64,000 nt of DNA, from contig JBAZNT010000004.1 in assembly GCA_041649115.1 (NCBI GenBank), positions 23,466 to 87,465 on the forward strand, read 5' to 3'. Source of the stretch: Candidatus Omnitrophota bacterium (GTDB lineage Bacteria; Omnitrophota; Gorgyraeia; Gygaellales; Profunditerraquicolaceae). Positions 36,060 through 61,135 of this stretch are shown piece by piece; the stretch's first letter is position 1, and every line of letters begins with the position of its first letter. The notes under the pieces are model-generated. The model was not told the DNA's origin. It ran no database searches and saw only the letters and a program-made list of their open reading frames with translations. Made by a program: the position numbers and the translations under genes.

Positions 36060-36062
36060 TTA

Positions 36063-36135
36063 GGGGCGGTTCTCTACTCGAAGCAAAGGTGTCCCCGTAA
36101 GGGGCACACTTTAAGATTGACTTCAGAACCAGCTC
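36063..36135. repeat. REP/MITE-like palindromic element related to the RAYT flanks
   Basis: GGGGCGGTTCTCT...AAAGGTGTCCCC-GTAA-GGGGCACACTTTAAG...TTCAGAACCAGC carries both the outer (GGGRCGGTTCTC / GAGAACC) and inner (AAAAGTGTCCC / GGGACACTTTT) motifs found at 47629-47661 and 48195-48229. Confidence 0.6.
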
Positions 36136-36169
36136 TGGTAAAATATAAGGAAAAAAGGAGGAGCAAGAG

Positions 36170-37354
36170 ATGAAGAGAATATTTTTAGTTCTGGCAGCCA
36201 TGTTTTTAGCATTACCGACCTGTCTTTTATCGGCAGAGACCTCGTCCGAGACATCCAAGGAGGGGTCTTCCGCCGTAACCCTGGCACCCAAGGAGTTCGT
36301 TATTTACAATGATAAAAACTCCAGGGATAATCATTACATACCTTCGGGATTTATGGGCGATGTCGGAGACATCAAGCTTAATGACCAATACATGGCCGAT
36401 CCTCATAGCGGCCCTACCGGCATTGAGTTTGTATACACTGCGAAAAACAGCCAGGGGCAGGGGTGGGTAGGGGTTTACTGGCAGAATCCCGCAAATAACT
36501 GGGGAACGAGAAAGGGCGGTTTCGACCTTAGCGGCATGACCAAGCTTACCTTTTGGGCAAAGGGCGCCAAAGGGGGCGAGGTCGTCAGGGAATTTATGGT
36601 CGGAGGCATCAAGGGGACCTATCCCGATACCACGCTAGTTAAGTTCGGCCCGGTTGAACTCACCGACACCTGGAAGCAATATACGATTAATCTCGCCGGA
36701 AATGATTTGAGCTATATCAGCGGCGCATTCGGCTGGGTTACCACCTCTGATTTAAACCCCCAGGGTGCTACCTTTTATCTGGATGATATCAAATTCGAGG
36801 CCGACCCCGCCATGAAACCCGAGGGTCATAAGGTAGAGAATATGCCTTTTTACGTCTACGCCGACAGGAATTCCATAACTAACCATTTTACTCCTTCAGG
36901 GTTTATGGGCAGTTACGGCGACATCAAGATTGATATCGCATCCAATACGGATCCTTATCTCGGCAACAGCTGCATTAAAATGGTATATACCGCCAAGGCC
37001 GTTCAAGGGGTACGCTGGGCAGGGGTTTACTGGCAGAATCCCCCTAATAACTGGGGTACTGTTGATGCCGGTTTTGACCTTTCCCGCGCTAATCAACTTA
37101 GCTTCTGGGCGCGCGGAGAAAAGGGCGGAGAGAGGATTGAGGAGTTTAAGATCGGCGGTATCATGGGAGAATATTCCGATTCCGATTCCGCCAGCATAGG
37201 TCCGGTGATATTAAACAAGGAATGGACGCAGTATACCATTGACTTAAGGGGTAAGGACATGTCATATATTATAGGAGGTTTCTGCTGGGTTACCAACGCC
37301 GATGTCAACCCCGAAGGAGCGACTCTCTATCTGGATGAAATCAAATACGAATAA
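36170..37354 (+). CDS. Secreted protein with two tandem ~170-aa CBM-like beta-sandwich domains
   Basis: Signal peptide MKRIFLVLAAMFLALPTCLLSA. There is an internal duplication: ...NHYIPSGFMGDVGDIKL...GVYWQNPANNWGT...ATFYLDDIKFE is followed by ...NHFTPSGFMGSYGDIKI...GVYWQNPPNNWGT...ATLYLDEIKYE. Confidence 0.6.
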   Translation: MKRIFLVLAAMFLALPTCLLSAETSSETSKEGSSAVTLAPKEFVIYNDKNSRDNHYIPSGFMGDVGDIKLNDQYMADPHSGPTGIEFVYTAKNSQGQGWVGVYWQNPANNWGTRKGGFDLSGMTKLTFWAKGAKGGEVVREFMVGGIKGTYPDTTLVKFGPVELTDTWKQYTINLAGNDLSYISGAFGWVTTSDLNPQGATFYLDDIKFEADPAMKPEGHKVENMPFYVYADRNSITNHFTPSGFMGSYGDIKIDIASNTDPYLGNSCIKMVYTAKAVQGVRWAGVYWQNPPNNWGTVDAGFDLSRANQLSFWARGEKGGERIEEFKIGGIMGEYSDSDSASIGPVILNKEWTQYTIDLRGKDMSYIIGGFCWVTNADVNPEGATLYLDEIKYE

Positions 37355-38642
37355 AAAGATAGCCTCCGGCTCTAATTCGCCGGTTACCGTAAAAGGAGCC
37401 GCAAGCCGTAAGTTGCCCTTGCTTGCGGCTTCTTGTTTGGTGCTTTTCCTTTTCGCCTTAGGAATGGCTTCCAGGCCCAAGCCCGCGGTTTGGATTAAGA
37501 AATTTAAAGGCAGCCGTTATGAATTAATGGCAGCAGGCAAGCCTTATGTCGTAAAAGGGGTCTGCTATAATCCTATTCCTATCGGCAAGGGGCAGGATTA
37601 TGACTGGTGGTCAGATCCCAACAAGCCCTGGTTGACAGACGGCAGGTTGATGCAGGAGATGGGCGTTAATACCGTGCGCATATACAAGGCAGGCAATAAC
37701 CCCGAGAGCGTCAAGAAGGTCATCAGCGATATGTATGATATTTACGGCATACGCACCATTATGGGGCACTGGCTGGGTTTTTGGGAATATCCCTGCCCTC
37801 TTTACGGCGGGAAGGAATTTCAGGAGAAGGTCAAGAAAGAGGTCCTTGAGATGGTCAGCCTCTATAAGGATGAGCCAGGCATACTCATGTGGATCCTGGG
37901 TAATGAGAATAATTATTCCTGTTTCGGACAGGTCAACCCCTGGTCCACCGATGAAATAGATAAGGAGACCGACCCCGCGAAGCAGAACCTGATGCGCGCC
38001 AGGGTGTATTATTCTTTCGTCAATGATCTGGCGGCTGAAATACACAAGATTGACCCTGATCACCCGGTGGCCCTGGGTAACGGTGAGCTTCTGGGGCTGG
38101 AGGTCGCTGGCGAGGTCTCGCCCGAGATAGACGTGGTGGCATGTATTATTTATCGCGGCAAGAGCTTCGGCAATATCTTCAATTCCCTGAAAAACATCTT
38201 TGACCGCCCGATCCTCATCTCTGAATTCGGAGCAGACAGCTACGACGCGTATCTGGGCAAAGAGGATCAGAACATGCAGGCATTCTTCCTTGAGGCGCAG
38301 TGGAGGCAGATTTATCAGAACCTCGCTGCCACCAAGGGCGGCGCGGGTAACTGCATCGGAGGCGCGATGTTCGAATGGACGGATGAATGGTGGAAGCATA
38401 ACGAGTATTATGCCGATGGATGGAGCCTCCATGATTGCGAATCCAATTGGTCCAACCCCAGTTATTACTTTGACATCAAGGCCAACAGCAATAAGAATAT
38501 GAATGAGGAGTGGTTTGGTATTGTGGAATTGTCAAAAGAGGACGAATCCGGGCTGGATAGGCGCATTCCCCGCAAGGCCTATTATCTAATCAGGGAATTC
38601 TGGAAGAATCCGGCTCTCGCCGATACCCCCCGTAAAAAATGA
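37335..38642 (+). CDS. Membrane-anchored/secreted clan GH-A glycoside hydrolase, paralog of 33732-36059
   Basis: KPYVVKGVCYNP, GVNTVRIYKAG, WILGNENNYS, ILISEFGADSY, GGAMFEWTDEWWK. ATG 37335 (MKSNTNKK...) is preferred. The ORF-track start 37302 lies inside the preceding CDS. Confidence 0.6.
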   Translation: MKSNTNKKIASGSNSPVTVKGAASRKLPLLAASCLVLFLFALGMASRPKPAVWIKKFKGSRYELMAAGKPYVVKGVCYNPIPIGKGQDYDWWSDPNKPWLTDGRLMQEMGVNTVRIYKAGNNPESVKKVISDMYDIYGIRTIMGHWLGFWEYPCPLYGGKEFQEKVKKEVLEMVSLYKDEPGILMWILGNENNYSCFGQVNPWSTDEIDKETDPAKQNLMRARVYYSFVNDLAAEIHKIDPDHPVALGNGELLGLEVAGEVSPEIDVVACIIYRGKSFGNIFNSLKNIFDRPILISEFGADSYDAYLGKEDQNMQAFFLEAQWRQIYQNLAATKGGAGNCIGGAMFEWTDEWWKHNEYYADGWSLHDCESNWSNPSYYFDIKANSNKNMNEEWFGIVELSKEDESGLDRRIPRKAYYLIREFWKNPALADTPRKK

Positions 38643-40315
38643 AAAGACCTTTATCTAAAGCCGTCATCCTTGCCTTGTTTTTCTTAGTCTGCCTTCCTGC
38701 CACGGCACTCGCATTAGACAGCCAGCAGCAAAAGAAGGCGGGCCTCTTAGTAACAGAGATAAACAAAACCAAAGACAATGCTAAGCGTTACGCCCTATTT
38801 AATGAACTGGGGGAGCTTTATTTTAATAATAGCGATTTCAACGGCTTTATTACGGCGTTATCCTCTGTAGGCGACGGAGGCAAGGAGTCGGCATTATGGA
38901 GCGATTATTATACTGCCCTTGCCCGTTACAGGCAATTAAAGTACCTGGAGGAGAACCAGCTATGGGAGGAGTATTTTGCAAACCAGAATTCCTGGCGTAG
39001 TCAGATAACCGATTCTATCGCCAAGGTGCTTGGCGGGACTACCACAGTTGACCCCTTGCGTATCTTAAGCCGTCTCCTGCTCTGGAGGTTCTATCAGGAC
39101 CAGCAGGACCCGGCTAGAGAATTGCAGCTTTCGGGATTAATGGCTGAAGCTGGAGAATATGCCGCCGCCGGCTCCTCCGATGCCAGAGTGATAAAGACCG
39201 CGGCAGATGAGCTTTCATCCTACAACGAAAAAGGAAACGCCCGCCAGTTATATAAATTATACGTTTCCAAAGTCGTCTCCCCCGGAGAGGACAGCGGGGA
39301 AATAAAAAAGGTGGCCCTGGATTTCTACAGCCACGGTAACCTGGAGTTGGCAGAGACCGTTTACGATACTTATATGGAAAGGATAGTAGGGGCAGAAGGT
39401 GTTAAGGCTGTCCCGGAGCTGATTGAGATCGCAAGGCAATTTTCATACGGCGACAACAAGCCCGGCGATCCTTTTTATTCCGAGAAGGTCTTTGCCAAGA
39501 TAGAAGAACTGGCAGGTAAAGGGGCCTTTGATGAGAGGCTGATGTATCTTCGCGCCTTCAACCTGGAAAAGGGGAGGGATTTCCTGGCGGCCAAGGATAG
39601 ATATAGGGATTTTGCGGACTCTTTTCCGGATAGCCCAGAAAATAACGAGGCGCAGTATAAATTGGGAATTATCACCACATATATCATGCGCGACATCTCC
39701 GGAGGCAGGGGTTATTTTACAAAATTATCCGAAAGCGATAAGGTCAGCCCGCAGGCAATCTCGGCTATCTATCAGCTGGGGCTTCTGGCGCAGTGGGAGG
39801 GCAAGAATGAAGAAGCCCGACGCTATTACCTGGCTCTTAAAGATAAGGCCGGGGATGGGTTCAAAGAGACAGTGGGTCTTGCCAGCGAGAGGATCTCCGA
39901 ATTAGACGAATCCAGGCCGATGGAGTATAACCTCAAGACCTTCATAGATGTTTCGTTAAAACCGCAGGATGCCCAAACTGACCGCGCTAAATTTGAATTG
40001 AGCTGCCATCCTTACCGCAGCCTCAAAAACCAAGATGTCAATATAAGCTCTTCTTATTATTACGGAGACAACGGATGCCTGCAGCCGGAATTCCAGTATC
40101 TCTGGTCAGGGCACCTGGGAGCTTATCATGATACGGCCAAGGATTCATCCGCAACCGCGGATACCTGGGGGTTGACCAAGCCTGATACCGCTCAACCCGC
40201 TTTTGCTACCCAGTACATCCACAACGGAAGCAAGGAGGTTAACCTGGTAATAGTCTCCGCTAGCGGAGTTGTTGACCGTAATCTGGATATCGTGGATGTT
40301 TACGATTCCCCATAA
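38639..40315 (+). CDS. Secreted TPR-like repeat protein
   Basis: Signal peptide MKRPLSKAVILALFFLVCLPATALA and repeated helical A/Y/L-rich TPR-like units (e.g. EAQYKLGIITTYIMRD, AIYQLGLLAQWEGKNEEARRYY). Confidence 0.5.
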   Translation: MKRPLSKAVILALFFLVCLPATALALDSQQQKKAGLLVTEINKTKDNAKRYALFNELGELYFNNSDFNGFITALSSVGDGGKESALWSDYYTALARYRQLKYLEENQLWEEYFANQNSWRSQITDSIAKVLGGTTTVDPLRILSRLLLWRFYQDQQDPARELQLSGLMAEAGEYAAAGSSDARVIKTAADELSSYNEKGNARQLYKLYVSKVVSPGEDSGEIKKVALDFYSHGNLELAETVYDTYMERIVGAEGVKAVPELIEIARQFSYGDNKPGDPFYSEKVFAKIEELAGKGAFDERLMYLRAFNLEKGRDFLAAKDRYRDFADSFPDSPENNEAQYKLGIITTYIMRDISGGRGYFTKLSESDKVSPQAISAIYQLGLLAQWEGKNEEARRYYLALKDKAGDGFKETVGLASERISELDESRPMEYNLKTFIDVSLKPQDAQTDRAKFELSCHPYRSLKNQDVNISSSYYYGDNGCLQPEFQYLWSGHLGAYHDTAKDSSATADTWGLTKPDTAQPAFATQYIHNGSKEVNLVIVSASGVVDRNLDIVDVYDSP

Positions 40316-40345
40316 ACCCCTTAAATCCTTACTTCTTAAAAATAC

Positions 40346-40380
40346 TTGACTTATATTATATTTAATAGTATAAATAAGTC
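40346..40380 (+). promoter_or_regulatory. Promoter of the ROK regulator gene overlapped by an imperfect palindrome (candidate operator)
   Basis: TTGACT (40346-40351), 17 nt spacer, TATAAA (40369-40374). The palindrome GACTTATATTATA...TATAAATAAGTC (40348-40380) spans both hexamers. Confidence 0.5.
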
Positions 40381-40418
40381 TTAATTAAGGCTATTTTTCA
40401 AAAAAATAATTCTGCCGG

Positions 40419-41654
40419 ATGAGGAATATCGACCTGCAAAAACAGGAATTCAGCGAAAAGGAACGACGCAACATCAGGATTCTCGAAATCCTCAGGAAAA
40501 AAGGCCCTATTAGCCGGCCGGACATCTCCAAGGAAATAGGAATAAACGTAGTCACCGTCTCCAATTACATCGACGACTTCCTGAAGAACAAGCTTGTTTA
40601 TGAAAAGGAGCTTGATGTATCCGAAGGAGGGAGGCGCCCCACCTTAATAGAACTCAACCCCCACGGCGGATACATTATAGGCGTAGGGTTAAACCTTATG
40701 AATATGGTCGGCCTCTTGGTGGACCTTAAAGGGAATATCCTTACCAAGACCCAGATCGCCAGGCCCCGCGCTAACGTCAAGGAGATTGCGGAGTGCGTGC
40801 TGGAGATTATCCGCGAGATCCTTAAGCGCTCCAAGCAGTACACTGCTAATATCAAGGGCATCGGGGTCGGCATCGCCGGTCTCATCAATAAAAAAGACGG
40901 CTCCATCCACTGGCCGCAGAGGATGGACCATTACTACACCTATGCCTCGGTTGACCTTTCGTTGGCCGAGCTTATCGAGAAGGAATTCGACCTGCCGGTT
41001 TTGATCGAGAATGACGCCACCTGCGCCTGCTTCGGAGAGCAATGGATGGACGTGGAGCGTGAATTCAGAAATGTCATTTATATGTTTTCCGGGGTAGGCT
41101 GTGGTATAATCATTAACGGAGAAATCTACACCGGTACCAACGGTTATGCGGGAGAGGTCTCCATTTATAATTACCGCGAGGACGACCTTTTTAATTGCAA
41201 GCCAGGCAATAACTGCTTCCTGAAACGCTGGGAGGCCGACCTCGGGATAACAGAGGATTTAAAGACGGTATTCTCCCGCGACCATAGAGCTGCGGAGAAG
41301 TTTTTTAAGTTGACATCGGTCGACGCGACCAGGCTTGAACTTAAGACAATCTTAAGCGCATCCCAGGAGAACGACCCTTCATCGGTTGCGGCATTAGAGA
41401 GGGCTGCTAAGAGGTTAGGCATTAAGGTTGCTTACCTCGTGAATCTACTGAACCCCGAAACAGTCATTATCGGAGGCGGCCTGGAATATGCCGGAGAGAG
41501 ATTCCTGGAGACGGTCAATTCCACTGTCAGGGATTGGGCGTTCAGGGAAGAGACGCAGGACCTAAGGATCATTTATTCGGCCCTCAAGGAGAACGCCGTG
41601 GCAGTGGGGGCGGCAAGCCTGGTAGCCCAGAAGATATTCGCGCGCCTGCTATAA
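40419..41654 (+). CDS. ROK-family transcriptional regulator (NagC/Mlc/XylR type: N-terminal wHTH plus ROK sugar-kinase fold)
   Basis: N-terminal RNIRILEILRKKGPISRPDISKEIGINVVTVSNYI (HTH), then the ROK core GVGLNLM...GIGVGIAGLI...ENDATCACFGE...G.GCGIIINGE. Confidence 0.8.
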   Translation: MRNIDLQKQEFSEKERRNIRILEILRKKGPISRPDISKEIGINVVTVSNYIDDFLKNKLVYEKELDVSEGGRRPTLIELNPHGGYIIGVGLNLMNMVGLLVDLKGNILTKTQIARPRANVKEIAECVLEIIREILKRSKQYTANIKGIGVGIAGLINKKDGSIHWPQRMDHYYTYASVDLSLAELIEKEFDLPVLIENDATCACFGEQWMDVEREFRNVIYMFSGVGCGIIINGEIYTGTNGYAGEVSIYNYREDDLFNCKPGNNCFLKRWEADLGITEDLKTVFSRDHRAAEKFFKLTSVDATRLELKTILSASQENDPSSVAALERAAKRLGIKVAYLVNLLNPETVIIGGGLEYAGERFLETVNSTVRDWAFREETQDLRIIYSALKENAVAVGAASLVAQKIFARLL

Positions 41655-41675
41655 GTTAAGAGACAAGGAAGACTT

Positions 41676-42842
41676 ATGGAAGATAAGATGAAGTTTGTGG
41701 CAATAGGCCTGGCAGCAGCCTTATTAATCAGCATCTTTGCCAACTTCCAGAGTTGTAATTCCCGCAAGGCGGCGGAACTCGCCAGGGACGCCCTCAAAGA
41801 AGAAAACTCCTCTCTCTCCAAGAAGGTCAAGGAGAGCATCAAGGAAAAGAAAGAGATTGAAGAAAAGCTCGGCGCCTTGAAGGGCGAACTGGACAAACTT
41901 ACCAAGGAAAAGGATGACCTTGCTTCCCTCAGGGATGAACTTCAGAAGCAGTATGAGGCTCTTCTCAAGGAGAGGGATGCGATGCAGGAAAAATTAAAAG
42001 GCCAGATCGGCGAGGCCAGGGAGGGGTTAGCTGATAGCGCGTCTTCCAGGGAAGAGTCCTATTGGGCAAGGGTAATAAAGGAAAAGACCGACCTGTCGGT
42101 ACAGGTAGATAGCTTGCGCAGCGAATTGGAAAGGCTCAGGATTGCAAATGAGCAACTCAAGCGCGACAAAGATTCATTGGAGCTGGATTTGAAAAACCTT
42201 GACCGCGACAAGGAAGCCCTGGAGCAACAGGTTAAAGGGATGGATAGTATCAGCATAGACCTGGTAAGGGAAAAGAACTCCAAGATGAAAATCCAGGATG
42301 ACCTCACGGCTATCAAGAGGGAAAACTCTTCTTTGCGCAGACAACTAAGGTATATGGGCAGCCGTAAGACATACCTTGAGAATAAGCTGCAGAAGCTTCA
42401 GGAAGATAAGGAGTCGCTTCAGCGGCAGTTCGACGAAATGGGGACACTGCTGGAGAGTAAGATGTATCAGATGGGCGACGTCAAAGAGAAGCTCAAGGCT
42501 ATCCGCAGCGGAGAGGAATTAGAGACAAGCGAACCCAAGAAGGACTCCGTGGAGCTGCCGCCGATTGTGGTGCGGCCCGGCTCCGAGACGCCCGCTTCTG
42601 CCGGGCGCGTCTTGCCCGATACCCAGGGGATCGGCAGGATACTTGAGGTAAACCGCGAGAGTAAATTCGTTGTCATTGACCTGGGTGAAGATTACGGCTT
42701 AAAGATCGGCGATGCTTTCCATGTTTACCGCTCGGGAAAGTTAGTAGGGACTATTGAGGTAGTGCAGGCGCGTAAAGGCATTACTGCCTGCGACATCAAG
42801 GAAGAGAAAACCCCTATTAAGATAGGCGATATTATAAAGTAG
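41676..42842 (+). CDS. Membrane-anchored long coiled-coil protein with a small C-terminal beta domain
   Basis: N-terminal hydrophobic anchor FVAIGLAAALLISIFANF, about 250 aa of heptad-rich E/K/L sequence, and the C-terminus FVVIDLGEDYGLKIGDAFHVYRSGKLVGTIEVV...IKIGDIIK. Confidence 0.5.
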   Translation: MEDKMKFVAIGLAAALLISIFANFQSCNSRKAAELARDALKEENSSLSKKVKESIKEKKEIEEKLGALKGELDKLTKEKDDLASLRDELQKQYEALLKERDAMQEKLKGQIGEAREGLADSASSREESYWARVIKEKTDLSVQVDSLRSELERLRIANEQLKRDKDSLELDLKNLDRDKEALEQQVKGMDSISIDLVREKNSKMKIQDDLTAIKRENSSLRRQLRYMGSRKTYLENKLQKLQEDKESLQRQFDEMGTLLESKMYQMGDVKEKLKAIRSGEELETSEPKKDSVELPPIVVRPGSETPASAGRVLPDTQGIGRILEVNRESKFVVIDLGEDYGLKIGDAFHVYRSGKLVGTIEVVQARKGITACDIKEEKTPIKIGDIIK

Positions 42843-42860
42843 CAAAGCGTCTTCATATAA

Positions 42861-43892
42861 ATGACCCGCACTAAAAAACCAACCTCCGGTAAGGCAGCTT
42901 CCATCCATGATGTTGCCCGCTTAAGCGGGGTTTCCATCACCACGGTTTCGCGCGTCATCAATAAATTCCCTTCGGTCAAAGAAGCTAACCGCCGGCGGGT
43001 GTTAGAGGTGATGAAACAGCTTAAATACCAGCCCTCCAGCCTTGCGCAGCAGCTTGCCAGCGGCAGGAGCAATATCGTGGCCCTGGTGATACCGCGTTAT
43101 GAAGGCGTATTCTACTCTTTTTATGCCTTGGAGTTAATCCGCGGAATAGGCACGCTTTGCGAGGCCCTCAAGCTTGACCTTCTTCTCCACCTTACGGATA
43201 CGCGCACGCAGTTGAATCTGACGGGATTGGGAGGGGTGATATTTTCCGATATCATCGGCAACCGCTCCCAGGTGGAGGACGCCATTGCCAGCGGCATTCC
43301 CTGCATCGTTATTAATAATTACCCCAAAGACCTCCCGGTTAGCTGCATAACGGTGGATAACGTTGGAGGGGCCCTGGCTGCGGTGAATTACCTGGTCAGC
43401 CTCGGCCATAAGAAAATAGCGCATATCAGCGGCGACTTGGTTACCCAGGCAGCAGCACAGCGTTTTGAGGGGTACAAGAAGGCCCTCGATAAGAATAACA
43501 TCATTTTCAAGGAGGAATTGGTTTTTAAAACTGATTACTCGCGCGGCCAGGCGCGCCAGGCAGCAGAGGCCATCTTGAAGATGAAGGAGCCTCCCAGCGC
43601 GGTGTTTGTAGCTTCGGACTCCATGGCCCTGGAGGTGATGGCGGTAGCAAGAGAGATGGCAAGGGAGATACCGCGCGACTTGTCCATTGTCGGATTTGAC
43701 GATAATCCCTCCGGACTCTACGGGCCGGTTGCCCTGACCACCGTAAAACAGCCCTTGATAAAAATGGCAGAGGAGAGCGTTAAGGAATTATACAATATCA
43801 TGAATTCCAAAAGCAAGGATAACGGTCCCAAAAAGAGAATCCTGCCGACGGAATTAGTGATACGGGAGTCCTGCCGCCCATTCGGGAAATAA
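42861..43892 (+). CDS. LacI-family transcriptional regulator
   Basis: N-terminal HTH ASIHDVARLSGVSITTVSRVINKFPSVKEANRRRV plus a periplasmic-binding-protein-like sugar-binding core. Confidence 0.85.
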   Translation: MTRTKKPTSGKAASIHDVARLSGVSITTVSRVINKFPSVKEANRRRVLEVMKQLKYQPSSLAQQLASGRSNIVALVIPRYEGVFYSFYALELIRGIGTLCEALKLDLLLHLTDTRTQLNLTGLGGVIFSDIIGNRSQVEDAIASGIPCIVINNYPKDLPVSCITVDNVGGALAAVNYLVSLGHKKIAHISGDLVTQAAAQRFEGYKKALDKNNIIFKEELVFKTDYSRGQARQAAEAILKMKEPPSAVFVASDSMALEVMAVAREMAREIPRDLSIVGFDDNPSGLYGPVALTTVKQPLIKMAEESVKELYNIMNSKSKDNGPKKRILPTELVIRESCRPFGK

Positions 43893-43938
43893 TACAACTT
43901 ATTGTATATTAAGGAAGCTTGCCTACCAGATATTGTAT
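43892..43938 (+). promoter_or_regulatory. Two NrdR-box-like sites upstream of nrdJ
   Basis: ATACAACTTATTGTAT (43892-43907; palindromic arms ATACAA/TTGTAT; 12/16 matches to acaCwAtATaTwGtgt) and CTACCAGATATTGTAT (43923-43938; 10/16). The centres are 31 bp apart, the spacing typical of tandem NrdR boxes. Confidence 0.4.
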
Positions 43939-43945
43939 TTTTTTG

Positions 43946-43974
43946 TTGACAAACATCGCGAGAGCATTTATACT
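43946..43974 (+). promoter_or_regulatory. Sigma70 promoter of nrdJ
   Basis: TTGACA (43946-43951), exactly 17 nt spacer, TATACT (43969-43974), about 45 nt upstream of ATG 44019. Confidence 0.65.
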
Positions 43975-44018
43975 TTTCTGTATCGGTCATCAATCAACAT
44001 TTTAACTTGGAGCCCGCC

Positions 44019-46331
44019 ATGTCATTAAAATTATCCCAAAATTCCCTGAAGGTTCTGGAGAGGCGTTACCTCAAAAAAAATACCGAAGGAGAGATAGTGG
44101 AAACCCCTGAGGAACTCTTTCGTAGGGTATCCCGGGCCATTGCGGAGGCGGAGGGTCTTTACGGCGCAGGAGAAACAGAGGTGGCAGGGTTAGCGGATTC
44201 ATTTTATCGCGCCATGACGACGCTGGAATTTCTTCCTAATTCACCTTGCCTGATGAATGCCGGAAGAGATCTGGGGCAGCTCTCCGCTTGTTTTACCCTT
44301 CCCATCGAAGACGCGATGGAGTCAATATTCGAAACCTTGAAGGCCACCGCCATTATCCATAAGAGCGGAGGGGGGACGGGCTTTTCGTTTTCGCGGCTTC
44401 GCCCCAAGAATTCGGTAGTCAAGACTACCGGAGGAGTAGCGTCTGGTCCGGTTTCTTTCATGAAGGTTTATGATTCCGCTACCGAGGCAGTAAAGCAGGG
44501 CGGCACCCGCCGCGGGGCAAATATGGGGATCCTTGCGGTAGACCATCCGGACATCATGGAGTTTATTACCTGCAAGGAGAATAACAGGTCCATCAATAAT
44601 TTTAATATCTCGGTTGCCATTACCGACGCTTTCATGAAGAGGCTCGAGGCAGGAGAGGATTACGATTTAATTGACCCGCGGGGGAAAAAGGTGGTAGGGC
44701 GCATCAATGCCAAGGATGTATTTGAGTTGATTGTCAAACAGGCGCATAAAAACGGCGAGCCCGGAATTATCTTTATTGACCGCGTCAACCACGAAAACCC
44801 CACCCCCAAATTAGGAAAGATTGAAAGCACCAATCCCTGCGGCGAACAACCACTCCTGCCGTACGAAAGCTGCGACCTGGGCTCGATTAACCTTGAGCGT
44901 ATGTGCAGGAAGATAAACGGCCGCGCCGAGATAGACTGGCAGAAGCTGAAGGATGTAACCCGCCTGGCGGTGCATTTTCTCGATAACCTCATTGATGTGA
45001 ATAGGTATCCGTTGCCGGAGATTGAAAAAGCTACTAAGTTGACGCGCAAAATAGGGTTGGGCGTGATGGGGTGGGCAAGCCTTCTTATCCGCCTGGGGAT
45101 AGCGTATGATTCCGAAGAGGCGGTTGCCTTGGCTGAAAAAGTAATGTCTTTCATACGGGATGAGGCAACAAAGAAGTCTCAGGAGTTGGCAAAGAAGAAA
45201 GGGACCTTCCCGGCCTACAAAGGCAGTATTTATGACAGGAGTGAAAAGGGCATCAAGGTGCGTAACGCCACTCTTACCACCATTGCCCCCACCGGCACCA
45301 TCAGCATTATCGCAGGTCCGTGTTCTTCCGGCATCGAGCCCTTGTTTGCGATAGTCTATCACCGTAACGTCATGGATAATGATAAGCTGCTGGAGGTGGA
45401 TCCCATATTCGAAGAGGTTGCGCGGCAGCGCGGTTTCTACAGCCGCGAACTGATGCAGAAGATTGCCGATAAGGGGTGCCTCAAGGATATTCCGGAGGTG
45501 CCCGAAGACGTCAGGCGCATCTTTGTTACTTCCCACGACATCTCGCCTGAGTGGCACGTGCGTATGCAGGCGGCCTTTCAGAAATACGTGCACAACGCCA
45601 CTTCCAAGACTATAAATTTTGCTCACGAGGCCACTATTGATGACGTAAGAAAGGCGTACCTGTTGGCTTATGAATTAGGGTGCAAGGGCATTACTATTTA
45701 CCGCGACAGGAGCCGCGAGGAGCAGGTTTTGAATATCGGCACGGTAAAGGATGCTAAATCCGAAGGGCAGGAGGCACCGCAGCAGGCCGTGAATAAAGAG
45801 ATTGCTCCGCGGCCGCGCCCCGAGGTAATCATCGGCACTACTACCAAGGTGTCTACCGGTTGCGGCAACCTTTATGTTACCATTAATGTTGACGAGCGGG
45901 GCAAGCCTTTTGAGCTTTTTACCCAGATGGGCAAGGCCGGCGGCTGCGCGGCATCGCAATTGGAAGCAATCGGTCGCCTGGTTTCGCTGGGTTTTCGTTC
46001 GGGTATCGAGGTAAAATCCATAATTGAGCAGCTGCGTAATATCCGTTGTCCGTCTCCTTCCTGGGAGAAGGGGCAGCGGATATTCTCCTGCGCCGACGCA
46101 ATCGCCCGCGTGGTTGAAAAAAGGCTGGTTAACGTAAATGTAAATGTTATTCCTGCCGAGGTTGAAGCTGCCAGCATAGCCATGAAGCATTCCAGCGAGG
46201 ATGAAAGCGCATCCAAGATAGCTAATAGATCCCACGGCAATATCGTGGGGGTTTGTCCTGATTGCGGCGGTGCGCTGCGGCACGAGGAGGGTTGCGTCAA
46301 GTGCCATGCCTGCGGCTTTTCGAAGTGTTAA
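44019..46331 (+). CDS. nrdJ: Class II (adenosylcobalamin-dependent) ribonucleotide reductase
   Basis: Typical NrdJ sequence (LERRYLKK..., NSPCLMNAG, FTLPIEDAMESIF, TNPCGEQPL, TIAPTGT) with the C-terminal Zn-ribbon CPDCGG...CVKCHACG. ATG 44019 is preferred over TTG 44007. Confidence 0.9.
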   Translation: MSLKLSQNSLKVLERRYLKKNTEGEIVETPEELFRRVSRAIAEAEGLYGAGETEVAGLADSFYRAMTTLEFLPNSPCLMNAGRDLGQLSACFTLPIEDAMESIFETLKATAIIHKSGGGTGFSFSRLRPKNSVVKTTGGVASGPVSFMKVYDSATEAVKQGGTRRGANMGILAVDHPDIMEFITCKENNRSINNFNISVAITDAFMKRLEAGEDYDLIDPRGKKVVGRINAKDVFELIVKQAHKNGEPGIIFIDRVNHENPTPKLGKIESTNPCGEQPLLPYESCDLGSINLERMCRKINGRAEIDWQKLKDVTRLAVHFLDNLIDVNRYPLPEIEKATKLTRKIGLGVMGWASLLIRLGIAYDSEEAVALAEKVMSFIRDEATKKSQELAKKKGTFPAYKGSIYDRSEKGIKVRNATLTTIAPTGTISIIAGPCSSGIEPLFAIVYHRNVMDNDKLLEVDPIFEEVARQRGFYSRELMQKIADKGCLKDIPEVPEDVRRIFVTSHDISPEWHVRMQAAFQKYVHNATSKTINFAHEATIDDVRKAYLLAYELGCKGITIYRDRSREEQVLNIGTVKDAKSEGQEAPQQAVNKEIAPRPRPEVIIGTTTKVSTGCGNLYVTINVDERGKPFELFTQMGKAGGCAASQLEAIGRLVSLGFRSGIEVKSIIEQLRNIRCPSPSWEKGQRIFSCADAIARVVEKRLVNVNVNVIPAEVEAASIAMKHSSEDESASKIANRSHGNIVGVCPDCGGALRHEEGCVKCHACGFSKC

Positions 46332-46348
46332 AACAGGGAGAGTAAATA

Positions 46349-47629
46349 ATGAAAAAAATATTATATATTGTGCTGGACGGCTTAGGGGACCTGCCGCTTA
46401 AGGACCTGGGCGATAAGACCCCCCTTGAGGCTGCGCTTACTCCTAATCTTGACCGCCTGGCGCAGAAGGGTATTACGGGATTTGTTCATACGGTAGGCGA
46501 GGGCATTGCCCCTGAATCTGATATTGCGGTAATCAGCCTCCTGGGATACGATGCGCACAAGTATTATACCGGCAGGGGCCCCCTGGAGTCTTTTGCCGAA
46601 GGGTTGATCGTTAATGACGGTGACGTTGCCTTTAGGGTGAATTTCGCCACTGTCGAGGCTGACGGCAGGACCATTAAGGACCGCCGGGTAGGAAGGAACC
46701 TTGTTACCGAGGAGGCCGCTGCGCTTTCCAAGGAGATAAACTCCAAGGTCGCCCTTACCAACGGGACATTTGAGTTTAAGAATACCATCGGCCATCGCGG
46801 GGTGCTGGTGATACGCGGGATGCGTTCTAAGTTATCCGGTTGGATTACCAATACCGACCCTGCCTACGAGCGTGAAGGGGTATTCGGCGTAGCCAAGGAG
46901 AAGTTTGAGAATACCGTTTCCGTTTCAGCGCCCATGCCAGGGCATGAAGATTCCTCCGAGGCGGCGGAGGCCGCAAACCTTCTGAACGAGTTTACCAGAA
47001 AATCCAATCTCATCCTCAATGAATGCGCCCTGAATAAAAAAAGGATTGCCGAAGGAAGGCTCCCGGCCAATGTGATTTTATCGCGCGACGCCGGTGACCG
47101 CCTGCCGAAATTCCCCAAGATAAGCCAGGTATATAACGTTAGATTCGGCTCATTTGTGCAGATGCCGGTAGAAAAGGGTATTGCGCTCTTGACCGGGATG
47201 GAGATTATCGAGGTGCCGGAATCCACCGGTCACCTTGACGTGGATTATCCGGTCTGGGCGAAAGTAGCCCTGGAGTCCCTGAAGATTTACGACGGCATCT
47301 ATGTACATATCAAGGGTCCGGACGAGCCTGCCCATGACGGGGATTACAGGAAGAAAAGGGATATCATTGAGGCGATTGACAAGTTCTTCTTTACCAATCT
47401 CCTGCCCGAGCTTGAGCTGGCAGATACGATTGTGGCGGTGACGGCTGACCACTCTACGGTTTGCGCCATCAAGGCGCATTCTGCCGACCCTGTGCCTTTG
47501 CTGGTCTGCGGAGGTAGCGTCAAACCCGACGGTTCTTTGAGCTTTTCCGAAAAGGCCTCCAAACTCGGCTCAATCGGGGCGTTAAAAGGCCGCGACATCA
47601 TGCCCCTCCTCACAAAGCTAGCCAAGTAG
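46349..47629 (+). CDS. apgM: Cofactor-independent phosphoglycerate mutase, archaeal type (alkaline-phosphatase superfamily)
   Basis: MKKILYIVLDGLGD..., ...TADHSTVC..AHSADPVPLLV; the length and motifs are typical of ApgM. Confidence 0.75.
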   Translation: MKKILYIVLDGLGDLPLKDLGDKTPLEAALTPNLDRLAQKGITGFVHTVGEGIAPESDIAVISLLGYDAHKYYTGRGPLESFAEGLIVNDGDVAFRVNFATVEADGRTIKDRRVGRNLVTEEAAALSKEINSKVALTNGTFEFKNTIGHRGVLVIRGMRSKLSGWITNTDPAYEREGVFGVAKEKFENTVSVSAPMPGHEDSSEAAEAANLLNEFTRKSNLILNECALNKKRIAEGRLPANVILSRDAGDRLPKFPKISQVYNVRFGSFVQMPVEKGIALLTGMEIIEVPESTGHLDVDYPVWAKVALESLKIYDGIYVHIKGPDEPAHDGDYRKKRDIIEAIDKFFFTNLLPELELADTIVAVTADHSTVCAIKAHSADPVPLLVCGGSVKPDGSLSFSEKASKLGSIGALKGRDIMPLLTKLAK

Positions 47630-48229
47630 GGACGGTTCTCAGTTCCCCTTAAAAGTGTCCCTTTTTAAAGGTTAGATATTTCATCCAACATAGTGTTACC
47701 GATTAATCTTAACCTGTAGCTACTCCAGGGATATAGATTTAAGTCCAATGTCAGATTAGTTCGTAGCGGATTAGTTTCTATATAATCGACGCATTTTAAA
47801 AGGTAACTTTCCCCTTGGATTATTTTGCTTTTGAATCTGTCCTGCCATAGGTGTCCCACTTTATTGTATTTAGAATTAAAATATAAAGTGTAACTTAGAT
47901 TTAAGCCACGCATAATTTTATTCAAGCGCGTTGGTTCATTAACCTCAAGCATAAGATGGACATGATTGGGCATCAGGCAAAATGCGTATAATTTAAACAA
48001 ATAGCGTTTCTTATAGCTTGTTAATATCTTTAGGTACTTTTCATAATCCTCAGAAGCCATAAAAACCGGTTGTTTTTGATTTCCTCGTGTGATAATATGG
48101 TAACAACCATTTTCTACAGTAATTCTTCCTATTCGTGGCATACTTATCACCTCCTATTTAATAGACGCATAGAACATTATTTTCTAACAAAAAAGGGGGA
48201 CACTTTTAACCGTGGTTGAGAACCGTCCC
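47629..48229 (-). mobile_element. RAYT element: REP-associated tyrosine transposase gene bracketed by ~34-nt imperfect inverted repeats
   Basis: Left repeat GGGACGGTTCTCAGTTCCCCTTAAAAGTGTCCC (47629-47661). The right repeat GGGGGACACTTTTAACCGTGGTTGAGAACCGTCCC (48195-48229) is its imperfect reverse complement. Confidence 0.7.
47665..48150 (-). CDS. IS200/IS605-like Y1 (HUH) transposase, REP-associated tyrosine transposase (RAYT) type
   Basis: GCYHIITRGNQKQPVF, HUH motif MPNHVHLML, catalytic Tyr region YPWSSYR. At 161 aa it is the only minus-strand gene in the window. Confidence 0.8.
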   Translation of the reverse strand: MISMPRIGRITVENGCYHIITRGNQKQPVFMASEDYEKYLKILTSYKKRYLFKLYAFCLMPNHVHLMLEVNEPTRLNKIMRGLNLSYTLYFNSKYNKVGHLWQDRFKSKIIQGESYLLKCVDYIETNPLRTNLTLDLNLYPWSSYRLRLIGNTMLDEISNL

Positions 48230-50101
48230 TATGATGTGATTGTGGTGGGGGCTGGGCATGCCGGCATCGAGGCCGCTTTGGCGGCAAGCCGCATGGGCAA
48301 GAAGACGCTTTTGGTGACCCTAAGCGCAGAAACTATCGGCCAGATGAGCTGCAATCCGGCAATCGGCGGGGTTGGCAAGGGGCAGCTTGTTAAGGAGATT
48401 GATGCGTTGGGGGGAGAAATGGCCCGCGCAGCAGATTCCGCTGGGATACAATTCCGCATCCTGAATGCCTCCAAGGGCGCAGCAGTGCAGTCCTCGCGCT
48501 GCCAGATTGACCGCAAACTGTATAAGAATTATATGCGCGCCGCCGTAAGTCATCAACATCGCCTTGAGGTAAAAGAAGCCCATGTCAGGTCGTTGATCGT
48601 GGAAGACGGTATCGTCAAAGGAATGCTTACGGATGCTGGGGGAGCGCTGGAGTCTTCTGTAGTGGTGCTTGCGCCGGGGACATTTCTAAACGGGGTTATT
48701 CACGTTGGGCTCAAGCATTTCAGCGCCGGGCGCATTGACGAGCCTGCAGCCGTAGAATTAAGCGATAACTTGGAGAGGTTAGGCTTTAGGCTGCAGCGTT
48801 TTAAGACCGGTACCTGCCCGCGCCTGGATAAGGACAGCATTGATTTCTCGCGTCTTCTGGCCCAGCAAGGAGACAGCCCTCCCAGGCCTTTCTCTTTCTC
48901 CACCCGCGAGCTTAAGCAGAGGCAGATACCATGCCATATAACCTATACTAACGAAAATACGCACCGGCTCATACTGGATAACCTTGACCGCTCTCCTCTT
49001 TATGCGGGTATAATCCAGGCAACCGGGGTGCGTTATTGCCCTTCCATTGAAGACAAGATTGTAAAGTTCAGGGAGAGAGTCAGGCACCAGGTATTCCTGG
49101 AGCCGGAAGGTTACGACGCAAGAGAGGTTTATCCTAACGGCCTGGCAACCAGCCTCCCCGAGGACGTGCAGTTAGAAATGCTGCATTCCATCGAGGGTCT
49201 GGAGGACGCCGAGATATTAAAATTCGGTTACGGCATTGAGCATAGCGTGGTTGACCCTCTCCAGCTTTATCCGAGCCTCCAGACGAAGTTAATCAAGAAT
49301 CTTTATCTGGCCGGTCAGATTAACGGCACTACCGGTTATGAGGAGGCAGCTGCTCAGGGCCTGGTCGCCGGCATCAACGCTGCCTTAAGCTCTGAGGGGA
49401 GAGAACTGTTGGTTTTAGACCGTAGCTCGGGTTACATCGGGGTCTTGATTGACGATTTAACTACAAAAGGTACTAACGAGCCTTACCGTATGTTTACCTC
49501 GCGCGTCGAGTACCGCCTCCTCCTGAGGGAGGATAACGCGGATTTGCGGTTACGCAAAATCGGCCATGAGGTAGGCCTGGTTGGCGGCCGGGTCTATTCT
49601 AAGACTGAAGAGAAGGCACGCCATATCAAGGACGGAATTGCTTTTTTAAGAGAAAAGCGCGTTGGCCCGGGGTCCGGCATAAATGACATTTTAAATAAGC
49701 ATGCAGGATTTACCGTCAAAAAGGCAGTTACCTTAGAGGAGCTCCTGAGGCGGCCTGAGGTAAGACTCGAAGATTTGAGGGGGGCAGGGGTCCTTGAGGA
49801 TATACCCGAAAGTATTGGAAGAGAGATGGAAATTGAAGTAAAATATTCTGGGTTTATCCAGCGCCAGCTTGCCGAGGTAGAAAGATTCAGGAATCTGGAA
49901 AGAATAAGGCTGCCTGCGGAACTGGACTATAGCCTTGTCAACGGATTGTCCCGCGAGATTCGCGAGAAGCTTAAAAATTTAAAGCCCATAAATCTTGGCC
50001 AGGCCTCCCGTATCTCAGGGGTGACCCCGGCAGCAGTCGCAATATTGATGGTGTACCTTAGGAAGCTCAATGAGCAAAGGAAAAAACTACAGCGCCCTTA
50101 A
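48212..50101 (+). CDS. mnmG: tRNA uridine-5-carboxymethylaminomethyl(34) synthesis enzyme MnmG (GidA)
   Basis: YDVIVVGAGHAGIEAALA FAD fold, MSCNPAIGG.GKG.LV.EIDALGG, 629 aa. The GTG start and first 6 codons lie inside the right inverted repeat of the RAYT element. Confidence 0.9.
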   Translation: MVENRPYDVIVVGAGHAGIEAALAASRMGKKTLLVTLSAETIGQMSCNPAIGGVGKGQLVKEIDALGGEMARAADSAGIQFRILNASKGAAVQSSRCQIDRKLYKNYMRAAVSHQHRLEVKEAHVRSLIVEDGIVKGMLTDAGGALESSVVVLAPGTFLNGVIHVGLKHFSAGRIDEPAAVELSDNLERLGFRLQRFKTGTCPRLDKDSIDFSRLLAQQGDSPPRPFSFSTRELKQRQIPCHITYTNENTHRLILDNLDRSPLYAGIIQATGVRYCPSIEDKIVKFRERVRHQVFLEPEGYDAREVYPNGLATSLPEDVQLEMLHSIEGLEDAEILKFGYGIEHSVVDPLQLYPSLQTKLIKNLYLAGQINGTTGYEEAAAQGLVAGINAALSSEGRELLVLDRSSGYIGVLIDDLTTKGTNEPYRMFTSRVEYRLLLREDNADLRLRKIGHEVGLVGGRVYSKTEEKARHIKDGIAFLREKRVGPGSGINDILNKHAGFTVKKAVTLEELLRRPEVRLEDLRGAGVLEDIPESIGREMEIEVKYSGFIQRQLAEVERFRNLERIRLPAELDYSLVNGLSREIREKLKNLKPINLGQASRISGVTPAAVAILMVYLRKLNEQRKKLQRP

Positions 50102-61061: not shown

Positions 61062-61135
61062 GGGATGGTTCTGAAGGTGAAGCTAACCTGCCCCCTTTCA
61101 GGGAGACAGGTTACGAACGACCTGAGAACCGTCCC
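61062..61135. repeat. REP/MITE-like palindromic element sharing the RAYT terminal motif
   Basis: GGGATGGTTCTGA (61062-61074) ... inner palindrome AACCTG..CAGGTT ... TGAGAACCGTCCC (61123-61135). The outer arms match the RAYT-element termini GGGACGGTTCTCA / TGAGAACCGTCCC. Confidence 0.55.

What the first reader, a model, noticed from the sequence alone, without database searches (positions are those of the whole stretch)
47629..48229. RAYT transposase nested in the loop of a palindromic element, with two gene-less MITE/REP-like derivatives; the right arm doubles as the 5' end of mnmG
The only minus-strand gene is an HUH/Y1 transposase. It is flanked by imperfect inverted repeats with outer motif GGGACGGTTCTCA / TGAGAACCGTCCC and inner motif AAAAGTGTCCC / GGGGACACTTTT. 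Removing the gene would leave a ~75-nt nested palindrome. Structures of exactly that kind sit at 36063-36135 (outer plus inner motifs) and 61062-61135 (outer motifs with a different inner hairpin), both in intergenic 3' regions. This is the REP/RAYT (REPtron) relationship captured within one window. In addition, the right repeat (48195-48229) contains the GTG start and first six codons (V-E-N-R-P) of mnmG. The element therefore either supplied or overlaps an essential gene's translation start.
Basis: partly seen in the sequence, partly recalled or inferred. Interest (0 to 1): 0.55.

Follow-up and report, generated by a model that had tools for sequence, protein, structure and literature searches.

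The report
Fixed RAYT transposase cassette with palindromes
A small tyrosine (HUH/Y1) transposase-like gene sits inside a split palindrome between two housekeeping genes of an Omnitrophota bacterium; it is an old, vertically inherited cassette of the known REP/RAYT kind rather than a fresh insertion, and its ends now supply one neighbour's stop codon and probably the other's start codon.

Summary
A 158-aa Y1/HUH gene (47665-48141, minus strand) lies between 40-nt inverted arms. These are the longest inverted repeat in the window. Two gene-less ~73-nt palindromes, at 36063-36135 and 61062-61135, share the outer motif.

The REP/RAYT reading is essentially right but needs refining.
- The arms are long terminal inverted repeats carrying the published GGGGWSAS motif. 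This is the "TIRtron/TIRYT" form (Bertels group 1, TnpAY1 subclass 2.1-like), not canonical GTAG-footed REP hairpins. The protein also lacks that subclass's C-terminal extension.
- The cassette is not a recent insertion. In related Omnitrophota contigs whose RAYT is at least 58% identical, both arms are present in 25 of 26 and mnmG is adjacent in 22 of 24.
- The RAYT gene is on average 11 GC points lower than its surroundings.
- The 11-mer GGGACGGTTCT also brackets 39-43% identical RAYT homologues in Bacillota. It forms palindromic pairs in MAGs of many phyla.
- The mnmG claim is plausible but unproven. The usual ATG and spacer are missing here, and the arm abuts the conserved Y-D-V codons.

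Verdict: a new member of a known kind, of moderate interest.

The parts
47627..47666 (.). Left inverted arm of the cassette. Its first bases are the TAG stop codon of apgM (47627-47629).
   Evidence: the repeat finder I1; sequence
47629..47641 (+). Outer motif GGGACGGTTCTCA, left copy
   Evidence: exact match
47651..47661 (+). Inner motif AAAAGTGTCCC, left copy. It ends 3 nt from the RAYT stop codon.
47665..48141 (-). RAYT/TIRYT-type Y1 HUH gene of 158 aa. HUH = H60-V-H62, W99-Q100, catalytic Tyr120 in YIETNP. 34% GC against about 53% in the flanks.
48148..48155 (-). Shine-Dalgarno AGGAGGTG, 6 nt upstream of ATG 48141. The GTG at 48150 lies inside it and is not the start.
   Evidence: read from the sequence
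48142..48191 (-). RAYT 5' leader/promoter region. The block TATGCGTCTATTA is conserved in L125 and L126.
   Evidence: sequence comparison. No consensus promoter was found on this strand.
48192..48231 (.). Right inverted arm
48196..48207 (+). Inner motif, right copy, GGGGACACTTTT. GGGGACAC fits the published TIRYT consensus GGGGWSAS.
   Evidence: PMC3733652
48217..48229 (-). Outer motif, right copy (TGAGAACCGTCCC on the + strand)
48212..48229 (+). GTG GTT GAG AAC CGT CCC: candidate start and first six codons of mnmG, all inside the right arm
   Evidence: (gene callers give 629 aa)
48230..48238 (+). TAT GAT GTG: the conserved Y-D-V of MnmG. This is the first base after the arm, and homology to the cassette-less relative resumes exactly here.
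36063..36135 (.). Gene-less palindrome E1, with outer and inner motifs and a degenerate right outer arm. It begins 4 nt after a stop codon. An orthologous copy is present in the nearest relative.
61062..61135 (.). Gene-less palindrome E3, with good outer arms and a different inner hairpin. It begins 13 nt after a stop codon.

Best explanation
This is a vertically inherited REP/RAYT-type system of the "TIRtron" form in a Candidatus Omnitrophota genome. A single 158-aa Y1/HUH enzyme gene lies antisense in the apgM-mnmG gap. It is bracketed by two half-palindromes, each made of an outer GGGACGGTTCTCA module and an inner AAAAGTGTCCC module.

The same modules, joined without the gene, form ~73-nt palindromes scattered in intergenic DNA at roughly one per 30-50 kb.

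Inferred mechanism, by analogy with E. coli TnpA-REP and IS608 TnpA: the protein binds the arms or palindromes when they are single-stranded at the replication fork. It cleaves next to the conserved core with Tyr120, assisted by the H60/H62-bound metal, and rejoins strands. This creates, moves or maintains the palindromes at a low rate.

The cassette itself no longer moves. It has been locked at this site long enough for its ends to be absorbed into the neighbouring genes. The terminal TAG is the apgM stop, and in this species the arm probably supplies the mnmG start.

What is shown: the anatomy, the family assignment, the conserved position, the co-occurrence of arms and gene, the multi-copy palindromes, and the cross-phylum core motif. 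What is inferred: catalysis on these sites, the ssDNA mechanism, and the start codon actually used.
For: - Protein family and catalytic motifs: the alignment to 4ER8 TnpA-REP aligns the HUH and Y motifs; H60, H62, W99, Q100, Y120, N124 and P125 are invariant in 28 homologues.
- Arms and palindromes.
- Same position in divergent genomes: L125 and L126-128.
- In 35 metagenome loci with RAYT at least 58% identical, both arms were present in 25 of 26 evaluable loci, mnmG was adjacent in 22 of 24, and apgM in 17 of 25.
- RAYT and MnmG have diverged to a similar degree (mean pairwise identity 67% and 69%), with a positive rank correlation of 0.40.
- Gene-less copies: 5 in 228 kb of flanking DNA, and several loci per genome in Omnitrophota MAGs STC_87, SO_2017_LW4_85, LacPavin_0920 and MAG177.
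- Specificity: a second RAYT paralogue in L125 has its own, different 58-nt TIRs.
- Four Bacillota RAYT homologues (39-43% identity) are bracketed by the same 11-mer.
- Literature: TIRs with GGGGWSAS flank TIRYT genes and occur as moderately abundant dimers (PMC3733652). Group 1 flanking 16-mers occur about 12 times per replicon (PMC5581495).
Against: - No complete genome of this species was available, so the copy number is an extrapolation.
- The two gene-less copies in the window do not share spacers with the cassette arms. E1 is an old, decaying copy also present in a relative that lacks the cassette, so there is no sign of recent mobilisation.
- The half-arms do not form significant hairpins on their own (z = -1.4 and +0.1), unlike canonical REPs.
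- No biochemistry exists for this RAYT group.
- The rank correlation of divergence is only moderate, and the pairs are not independent.
Confidence: 0.75

Rival explanations
1. The Y1 protein has been domesticated for a host function unrelated to moving palindromes. Examples would be processing of hairpins at the fork, or local control of the apgM/mnmG junction. On this view the dispersed palindromes are fossils of an extinct mobile phase.
For: - The position is fixed, with conservation comparable to a housekeeping gene.
- E1 is ancient and decaying.
- Palindrome density is low, and many 20-kb loci have none.
- The arms are always within 4-21 nt of the conserved Y-D-V codons near the start of mnmG.
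Against: - The arms around the gene stay nearly perfect in 25 of 26 loci, as expected if they are still substrates.
- Near-perfect gene-less copies exist in many genomes.
- Nested and tandem copies in other phyla indicate ongoing activity of the wider family.
- The nearest relative lost the cassette without visible harm.
Confidence: 0.15
2. The palindromes are host regulatory or structural hairpins, such as mRNA 3'-end stabilisers or terminators, that evolved independently. The transposase gene merely landed in one of them.
For: - All three elements in the window start 0-13 nt after a stop codon of the upstream gene.
- REP-like elements are known to act as RNA elements (PMC3733652).
Against: - The arm-gene association is conserved in Omnitrophota and in Bacillota homologues.
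- The core is conserved in sequence rather than only in pairing, and the spacers do not pair.
- No T-run terminator was found in the scanned region 47400-48500, and the bases that follow E1 and E3 are not T-runs.
- There was no Rfam match.
Confidence: 0.05
3. This is a recently acquired autonomous insertion sequence of the IS200/IS605 type, as suggested by the sharp GC drop.
For: - The cassette is 33% GC in a roughly 53% GC context.
- The cassette is 100% identical between two strains whose flanks differ by 6%.
Against: - The same site is occupied in genomes whose MnmG is only about 70% identical.
- The GC deficit is a constant property of the gene in all hosts.
- The IS200 model scores below its cutoff.
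- The Y motif is Y...NP and not Y...Q (PMC6006769).
- The exact protein was found in one genomic context only.
- The ends are inverted repeats, not distinct left and right hairpins.
Confidence: 0.03

Closest known systems
TIRtron / TIRYT (Di Nocera et al. 2013, PMC3733652), equated with TnpAY1 subclass 2.1 (Quentin et al. 2018, PMC6006769) and RAYT group 1 (Bertels et al. 2017, PMC5581495)
   Same: - A RAYT-like Y1 gene flanked by long terminal inverted repeats rather than canonical REPs.
- The TIR carries GGGGWSAS (here GGGGACAC).
- TIR copies are moderately abundant and mostly occur as inverted dimers.
- The protein motifs NHVH / WQ / YIETNP fit the 2.1 signature NHVH / W[EQ] / YIELNP.
   Different: - The protein is 158 aa and stops about 20 residues after the core. 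It lacks the C-terminal extension of about 90 residues that the Bacillota homologues found here carry (247-260 aa), which Quentin et al. describe as HTH/DnaA_C-like.
- The arm is a two-module unit, giving a nested palindrome.
- The locus is fixed across a large Omnitrophota clade.
- Quentin et al. reported no REP-like repeats for 2.1, whereas a defined 11-13-nt core is seen here.
Canonical REPtron / REPIN-RAYT systems (E. coli TnpA-REP, PDB 4ER8; Pseudomonas REPINs)
   Same: - A single-copy, vertically inherited Y1/HUH gene flanked by inverted copies of a repeat.
- The repeat also occurs as gene-less inverted doublets (REPIN-like) in intergenic DNA, mostly just downstream of genes.
- The Y...NP motif is present.
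   Different: - There is no conserved GT[AG]G foot, and the half-units are not stable hairpins.
- Abundance appears to be tens rather than hundreds.
- Similarity to 4ER8 is weak (E 0.007).
- The core motif is shared across phyla instead of being lineage-specific.
IS200/IS605 insertion sequences (IS608, ISDra2)
   Same: The same HUH/Y1 catalytic fold family (Pfam PF01797), and a presumed ssDNA cleavage chemistry.
   Different: - The Y motif is Y...NP and not Y...Q.
- The NCBIfam IS200 model scores below its cutoff.
- It is single-copy at a fixed locus.
- It has inverted-repeat ends, and no tnpB.

Membership tests
REP/RAYT (REPtron, REPIN-RAYT) | Y1/HUH protein with an HUH motif and a catalytic Tyr in a Y...NP motif | tested here: met
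   Pfam PF01797 E 2e-20. NCBIfam REP_Tyr_transpos 82.1 bits against a cutoff of 80. H60-V-H62 and Y120-IETNP are invariant in 28 homologues. Aligns to 4ER8.
REP/RAYT (REPtron, REPIN-RAYT) | Gene flanked by inverted copies of a repeat that also occurs dispersed without the gene | tested here: met
   Arms. Two gene-less copies in the window. Multiple loci per genome in other Omnitrophota.
REP/RAYT (REPtron, REPIN-RAYT) | Repeat unit is a 20-40-nt hairpin with a 5' GT[AG]G foot | tested here: not met
   The consensus end is taGGGACGGTTCTCAA, and GTAG is present only at the window's left arm. The half-arms fold with z = -1.4 and +0.1.
REP/RAYT (REPtron, REPIN-RAYT) | High genome-wide copy number of the repeat (tens to hundreds) | tested here: inconclusive
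   Only 64 kb of this genome was seen (2 gene-less copies). There were 5 copies in 228 kb of related contigs.
REP/RAYT (REPtron, REPIN-RAYT) | Single-copy, vertically inherited gene | tested here: met
   The exact protein occurs in one context only. The apgM-RAYT-mnmG order is conserved. Divergence is comparable to that of MnmG. A whole genome was not available for the copy count.
TIRtron/TIRYT = TnpAY1 subclass 2.1 = RAYT group 1 | Long TIRs containing GGGG[AT][CG]A[CG] | tested here: met
   GGGGACAC at 48196-48203, with its complement in the left arm. Consensus taken from PMC3733652 and PMC6006769.
TIRtron/TIRYT = TnpAY1 subclass 2.1 = RAYT group 1 | Motif signature NHVH / W[EQ] / YIELNP | tested here: met
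   PNHVHL, HLWQDRF and YIETNP, compared with Table 1 of PMC6006769. The authors' HMMs were not available, so this rests on the motifs only.
TIRtron/TIRYT = TnpAY1 subclass 2.1 = RAYT group 1 | C-terminal HTH (DnaA_C-like) domain, median length about 238 aa | tested here: not met
   The protein is 158 aa, and the whole Omnitrophota family is 155-162 aa. Bacillota homologues bracketed by the same motif are 247-260 aa, with a C-terminal extension ending in ...RQISRLTGIS.... Pfam reports no domain in that extension, so its HTH nature rests on PMC6006769.
IS200/IS605 | TnpA with the Y...Q motif, the IS200 model above cutoff, and multiple near-identical copies | tested here: not met
   NF033573 scores 25.5 bits against a cutoff of 55. 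The motif is YIETNP. The protein occurs in one context only.
TIR-bounded MITE of a DDE transposon | Target-site duplication flanking the TIRs and a cognate DDE transposase | tested here: inconclusive
   TA is found on both sides of many copies. Because TA is self-complementary, it cannot be told apart from part of the inverted repeat. No DDE gene was seen in the window.

The most novel reading that the evidence does not exclude
The 11-13-nt core GGGACGGTTCT(CA) may be the shared recognition and cleavage site of the largest RAYT group (Bertels group 1 / TnpAY1 2.1), which has so far been described as "REP-less". It appears across at least eight phyla, amplified into REPIN-like doublets. Omnitrophota would then keep a minimal form without the C-terminal extension, locked antisense between apgM and mnmG, where its arms have been absorbed into the stop and start codons of the two housekeeping genes.
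Probability: 0.35. Interest if true: 0.6.

Novelty: new member of a known kind. Interest (0 to 1): 0.45.

Why it matters
- It extends REP/RAYT-type systems to Omnitrophota, an uncultured phylum.
- It gives a clean natural example of long-term fixation of such a cassette at one locus.
- It points to a concrete, short DNA core shared by RAYT homologues in distant phyla. That core is a ready substrate for the first biochemical test of the largest RAYT group, for which no cognate repeat was clearly defined.
- It shows how a selfish or domesticated element's ends can become part of neighbouring genes' translation signals.
- It is a caution for annotating mnmG starts in these genomes, because gene callers run into the arm in several of them.

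Tried and rejected
- Rfam at gathering thresholds over the whole window found nothing.
- A full-text search for the motif strings returned only chance primer matches.
- A genome-wide count for this species was not possible.
- I tested whether each half-arm is itself a REP-like hairpin (GGGAC...GTCCC). The fold was not significant.
- The promoter and terminator scan of 47400-48500 gave no usable signal for RAYT or mnmG. There were 3 promoter-like sites against 1.6 expected, and none was placed where it could serve either gene.
- I considered that the AT-rich block next to mnmG (gidA) might be a replication origin. I rejected this because GC skew is positive in every 4-kb bin, all genes run the same way on both sides, and the block is a conserved ORF.
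- I considered recent horizontal acquisition because of the GC drop. I rejected it because of the conserved synteny and because the GC deficit is constant across hosts.
- Pfam did not detect a named domain in the C-terminal extension of the Bacillota homologues. Its HTH nature therefore rests on the literature description.
Full report
**What is in the window**

Between the stop codon of a cofactor-independent phosphoglycerate mutase gene (apgM, 46349-47629) and mnmG (48212-50101) lies a 600-bp block.

- Its GC content is about 33-34%. The flanks are about 53%.
- It holds the only credible minus-strand gene of the window.
- That gene is a 158-aa ORF from ATG 48141 to the stop at 47665. AGGAGGTG sits 6 nt upstream of the ATG, so the GTG at 48150 listed by the ORF finder lies inside the ribosome-binding site and is not the start.
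- The protein matches Pfam Y1_Tnp (E 2e-20). It passes the NCBIfam REP-associated tyrosine transposase model (82.1 bits, cutoff 80) and fails the IS200 model (25.5 bits, cutoff 55).
- Its only solved relative by sequence is E. coli TnpA-REP (4ER8, E 0.007), with the HUH and Y motifs aligned.

**The repeats**

The block is bounded by the longest inverted repeat of the window, 47627-47666 against 48192-48231 (40 nt, 80% complementary).

- Each arm has an outer module (GGGACGGTTCTCA) and an inner module (AAAAGTGTCCC). Both modules are exact in both arms. They are separated by a 9-nt spacer that does not pair.
- The outer module gives 5 hits in the window against 1.1 expected. None of 100 shuffles reached 5.
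- Joined in silico, the arms make an 85-nt hairpin of -29 kcal/mol (z = -7.8). Each arm alone does not fold better than shuffles.
- Two gene-less palindromes have the same architecture. E1 (36063-36135) has outer and inner modules and a degenerate right end. E3 (61062-61135) has good outer arms and a different inner hairpin.
- All three elements begin 0-13 nt after the stop codon of the upstream gene.
- Their spacers differ from those of the cassette arms, so E1 and E3 are relatives of the present cassette rather than fresh deletion products of it.

**Whose genome, and how old the arrangement is**

The window is identical to ENA contig ERZ27247363:k141_554441. Homologues of its proteins are named Candidatus Omnitrophota.

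The RAYT has more than 1000 homologues. The best 120 are almost all 155-162 aa and 60-72% identical. H60, H62, W99, Q100, Y120, N124 and P125 are invariant in an alignment of 28.

The gene sits in the same place and orientation in divergent genomes.

- It lies antisense between apgM and mnmG in genomes whose MnmG is only about 70% identical (L125 and L126-128).
- In a metagenome sample of 80 loci, 35 have a RAYT at least 58% identical to the window's. Among these, both arms are present in 25 of 26 evaluable loci, mnmG is adjacent in 22 of 24, and apgM in 17 of 25.
- None of the 45 more distant homologues is next to these genes.
- Pairwise divergence of RAYT (mean 67%) equals that of the first 300 residues of MnmG (69%). 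The rank correlation is positive at 0.40, but the pairs are not independent.

The cassette is therefore an old, vertically inherited resident of this gap and not a recent insertion.

The low GC is a constant property of the gene: 34 against 53% here, 31 against 46-48% in L125, and 29 against 39-41% in L126. The mean deficit is 11.4 points in 30 loci.

**A natural loss**

The closest relative (GCA_041650795.1, MnmG 89% identical) has a 250-aa TPR gene in place of the cassette and no arms.

- Nucleotide homology to the window stops at 47610 and resumes exactly at 48230, the first base after the right arm.
- That relative still carries the orthologue of palindrome E1 at the same intergenic site, and it is decaying at different positions than the window's copy.
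- E1 therefore predates the split and has not moved since.
- Both species occur in the same sample.

**The mnmG and apgM boundaries**

In 71 of the 100 close MnmG homologues in which the DV-type β1 motif was found (out of 120 listed), the protein starts M-x-x-Y-D-V/I.

- In related cassettes the right arm ends 4-21 nt before the conserved TAT GAT. Typically the order is arm, then a 9-12-nt spacer, then ATG, then two codons.
- In the window the spacer, the ATG and the two codons are missing. The arm is followed directly by TAT GAT GTG.
- The only in-frame start upstream is GTG 48212 inside the arm, with the preceding stop at 48185. It gives M-V-E-N-R-P-Y-D-V. Gene callers use it, giving 629 aa.
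- The alternative start, GTG 48236, would remove the conserved Y-D.
- In two other loci (L149, L157) an ATG formed by an A plus the TG of the arm reads ATG AGA ACC GTC CCT GAG TAT GAT. The start is again inside the arm, but in a different frame.
- On the other side, apgM stops 3 nt before the arm in L125 and L126. Here it uses TAG overlapping the arm, and the protein is one residue shorter.

It still needs a transcript or peptide end to be proven.

**The motif beyond Omnitrophota**

I scanned one genome per species for GGGAYGGTTCTSW, then 30-60 nt, then WSAGAACCRYCCC. My own calculation gives about one match expected by chance. The scan hit its 120-locus limit.

- About 26 loci are Omnitrophota or Planctomycetales MAGs with the same two-module palindrome of about 73 nt, with several loci per genome.
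- The rest come from Bacillota (many of them rumen Lachnospiraceae and Clostridia), Syntrophomonadaceae, Bacteroidales, Actinomycetota, Atribacterota, Nitrospirota, Chloroflexota and Desulfobacterota.
- In these other phyla the 11-mer GGGACGGTTCT sits between complementary 6-nt flanks. At least 4 of 6 positions pair in 176 of 262 instances, against 14 of 54 in the Omnitrophota type.
- The units occur in inverted pairs that are sometimes nested or tandem.
- Four of these loci carry a RAYT homologue 39-43% identical and 247-260 aa long, with a C-terminal extension. Each is bracketed by the motif, and the upstream copy overlaps a -35-like TTGACA.
- A second RAYT paralogue in L125 has its own unrelated 58-nt TIRs, as expected if each enzyme has its own cognate repeat.

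**Comparison with what is known**

- Di Nocera et al. described RAYT-like genes flanked by long TIRs ("TIRtrons", "TIRYT"). Many of those TIRs share GGGGWSAS and form moderately abundant, mostly dimeric repeat families (PMC3733652). The inner module here, GGGGACAC, fits that consensus.
- Quentin et al. equate TIRYT with TnpAY1 subclass 2.1 (Bertels group 1). Its signature is NHVH / W[EQ] / YIELNP, with a C-terminal HTH and a median length of 238 aa. They found no REP-like repeats for it (PMC6006769).
- Bertels et al. found that group 1 flanking 16-mers occur about 12 times per replicon (PMC5581495).
- The window protein has NHVH / WQ / YIETNP but lacks the C-terminal domain.
- Canonical REP features are not met. 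There is no GT[AG]G foot and no stable 20-40-nt hairpin.

I therefore file this as working like a REPIN-RAYT system and as closest to the TIRtron / group 1 form. It is a short variant lacking that group's C-terminal extension, and I do not claim strict membership of subclass 2.1.

**Mechanism and confidence**

The best-supported model (0.75) is a domesticated, vertically inherited RAYT whose cognate sites are its own arms and the dispersed palindromes. By analogy with TnpA-REP and IS608 TnpA, it would act on single-stranded DNA through Tyr120 and the HUH-bound metal. That step is inferred and was not tested.

Rival explanations:
- The enzyme is retained for another host function and the palindromes are fossils (0.15).
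- The palindromes are independent host hairpins (0.05).
- The cassette is a recent IS (0.03).

**Verdict**

The finding is real and its interpretation is largely right, but it belongs to a known kind. What adds interest:
- the phylum-wide fixation at one locus;
- the persistent AT-richness of the gene;
- the absorption of the arms into neighbouring genes' stop and start signals;
- a short core motif shared with RAYT homologues in distant phyla, which none of the papers I could search describes.

Noticed in passing
window 57-28076 (+): A giant ORF of 9339 aa fills almost half the window. It contains an exact 300-nt internal direct repeat (23661-23960 and 26202-26501). Relatives carry gene calls of 5252 to more than 7086 aa at the same place.
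   Followed up: no
L002 against window 38378-48225: A contig from another sample is about 94% identical to the window up to 47578. It is then 100% identical over 47579-48225, which covers the end of apgM and the whole RAYT cassette. That is 0 differences where about 39 would be expected. The contig ends inside the right arm. This is either recombination or a sweep of the cassette between strains, or a chimeric assembly.
   Followed up: partly
window 47665-48141; L125 10001-10477; L126 6988-7467; L129-L163: The RAYT gene is AT-richer than its host context in nearly every genome examined. The mean deficit is 11.4 GC points in 30 loci (range 0.4-21.6), despite long residence and strong protein conservation. 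This is unexplained. Possible reasons are weak selection on codon usage, selection for low expression, or a need for easy strand opening.
   Followed up: partly
L124 5005-6000 (GCA_041650795.1): The nearest relative has a 250-aa TPR-repeat gene on the + strand exactly where the cassette is. No arm remnants were detected. It co-occurs with the window's species in sample ERZ27247363 (L210).
   Followed up: partly
L211 9900-10000 against window 36060-36169: Palindrome E1 has an orthologue at the same intergenic site in the cassette-less relative. Different decay mutations are seen in each lineage: the right outer arm is intact there and degenerate here, while there are deletions in the left half there.
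   Followed up: yes
L004-L123 (non-Omnitrophota loci; for example L018 7011-7096, L029 3599-3664, L109 3893-3952, L111 2978-3054): In Bacillota, Bacteroidales, Actinomycetota and other phyla the 11-mer GGGACGGTTCT lies between complementary 6-nt flanks, so the conserved sequence is in the loop position. The units form inverted pairs, and nested and tandem copies suggest insertion of one element into another.
   Followed up: partly
L125 17821-18490: A second RAYT paralogue (160 aa, 17944-18426) lies 8 kb from the first. It is flanked by its own 58-nt inverted repeats built from GCACCTGGTGC units and ending in AGGGACAGGTAC.
   Followed up: partly
L149, L157 (right arm / mnmG start): The arm is duplicated, and an ATG created by an A plus the TG of TGAGAACCGTCCC gives M-R-T-V-P-E-Y-D-V. 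This is an independent case of the mnmG start lying inside the arm, in another reading frame. Several database MnmG calls (for example MRTVPNNIMNNYD...) run into the arm in the same way.
   Followed up: partly
window 36671-36798 and 37223-37350: A 128-nt direct repeat, 70% identical, lies inside the 394-aa ORF 36170-37354. That ORF is a conserved Omnitrophota hypothetical protein with no Pfam domain. The repeat is probably an internal protein repeat.
   Followed up: no
whole window: GC skew is positive in every 4-kb bin and all real genes except the RAYT are on the + strand. The window lies within one replichore, and the RAYT is the only gene facing the other way.
   Followed up: yes
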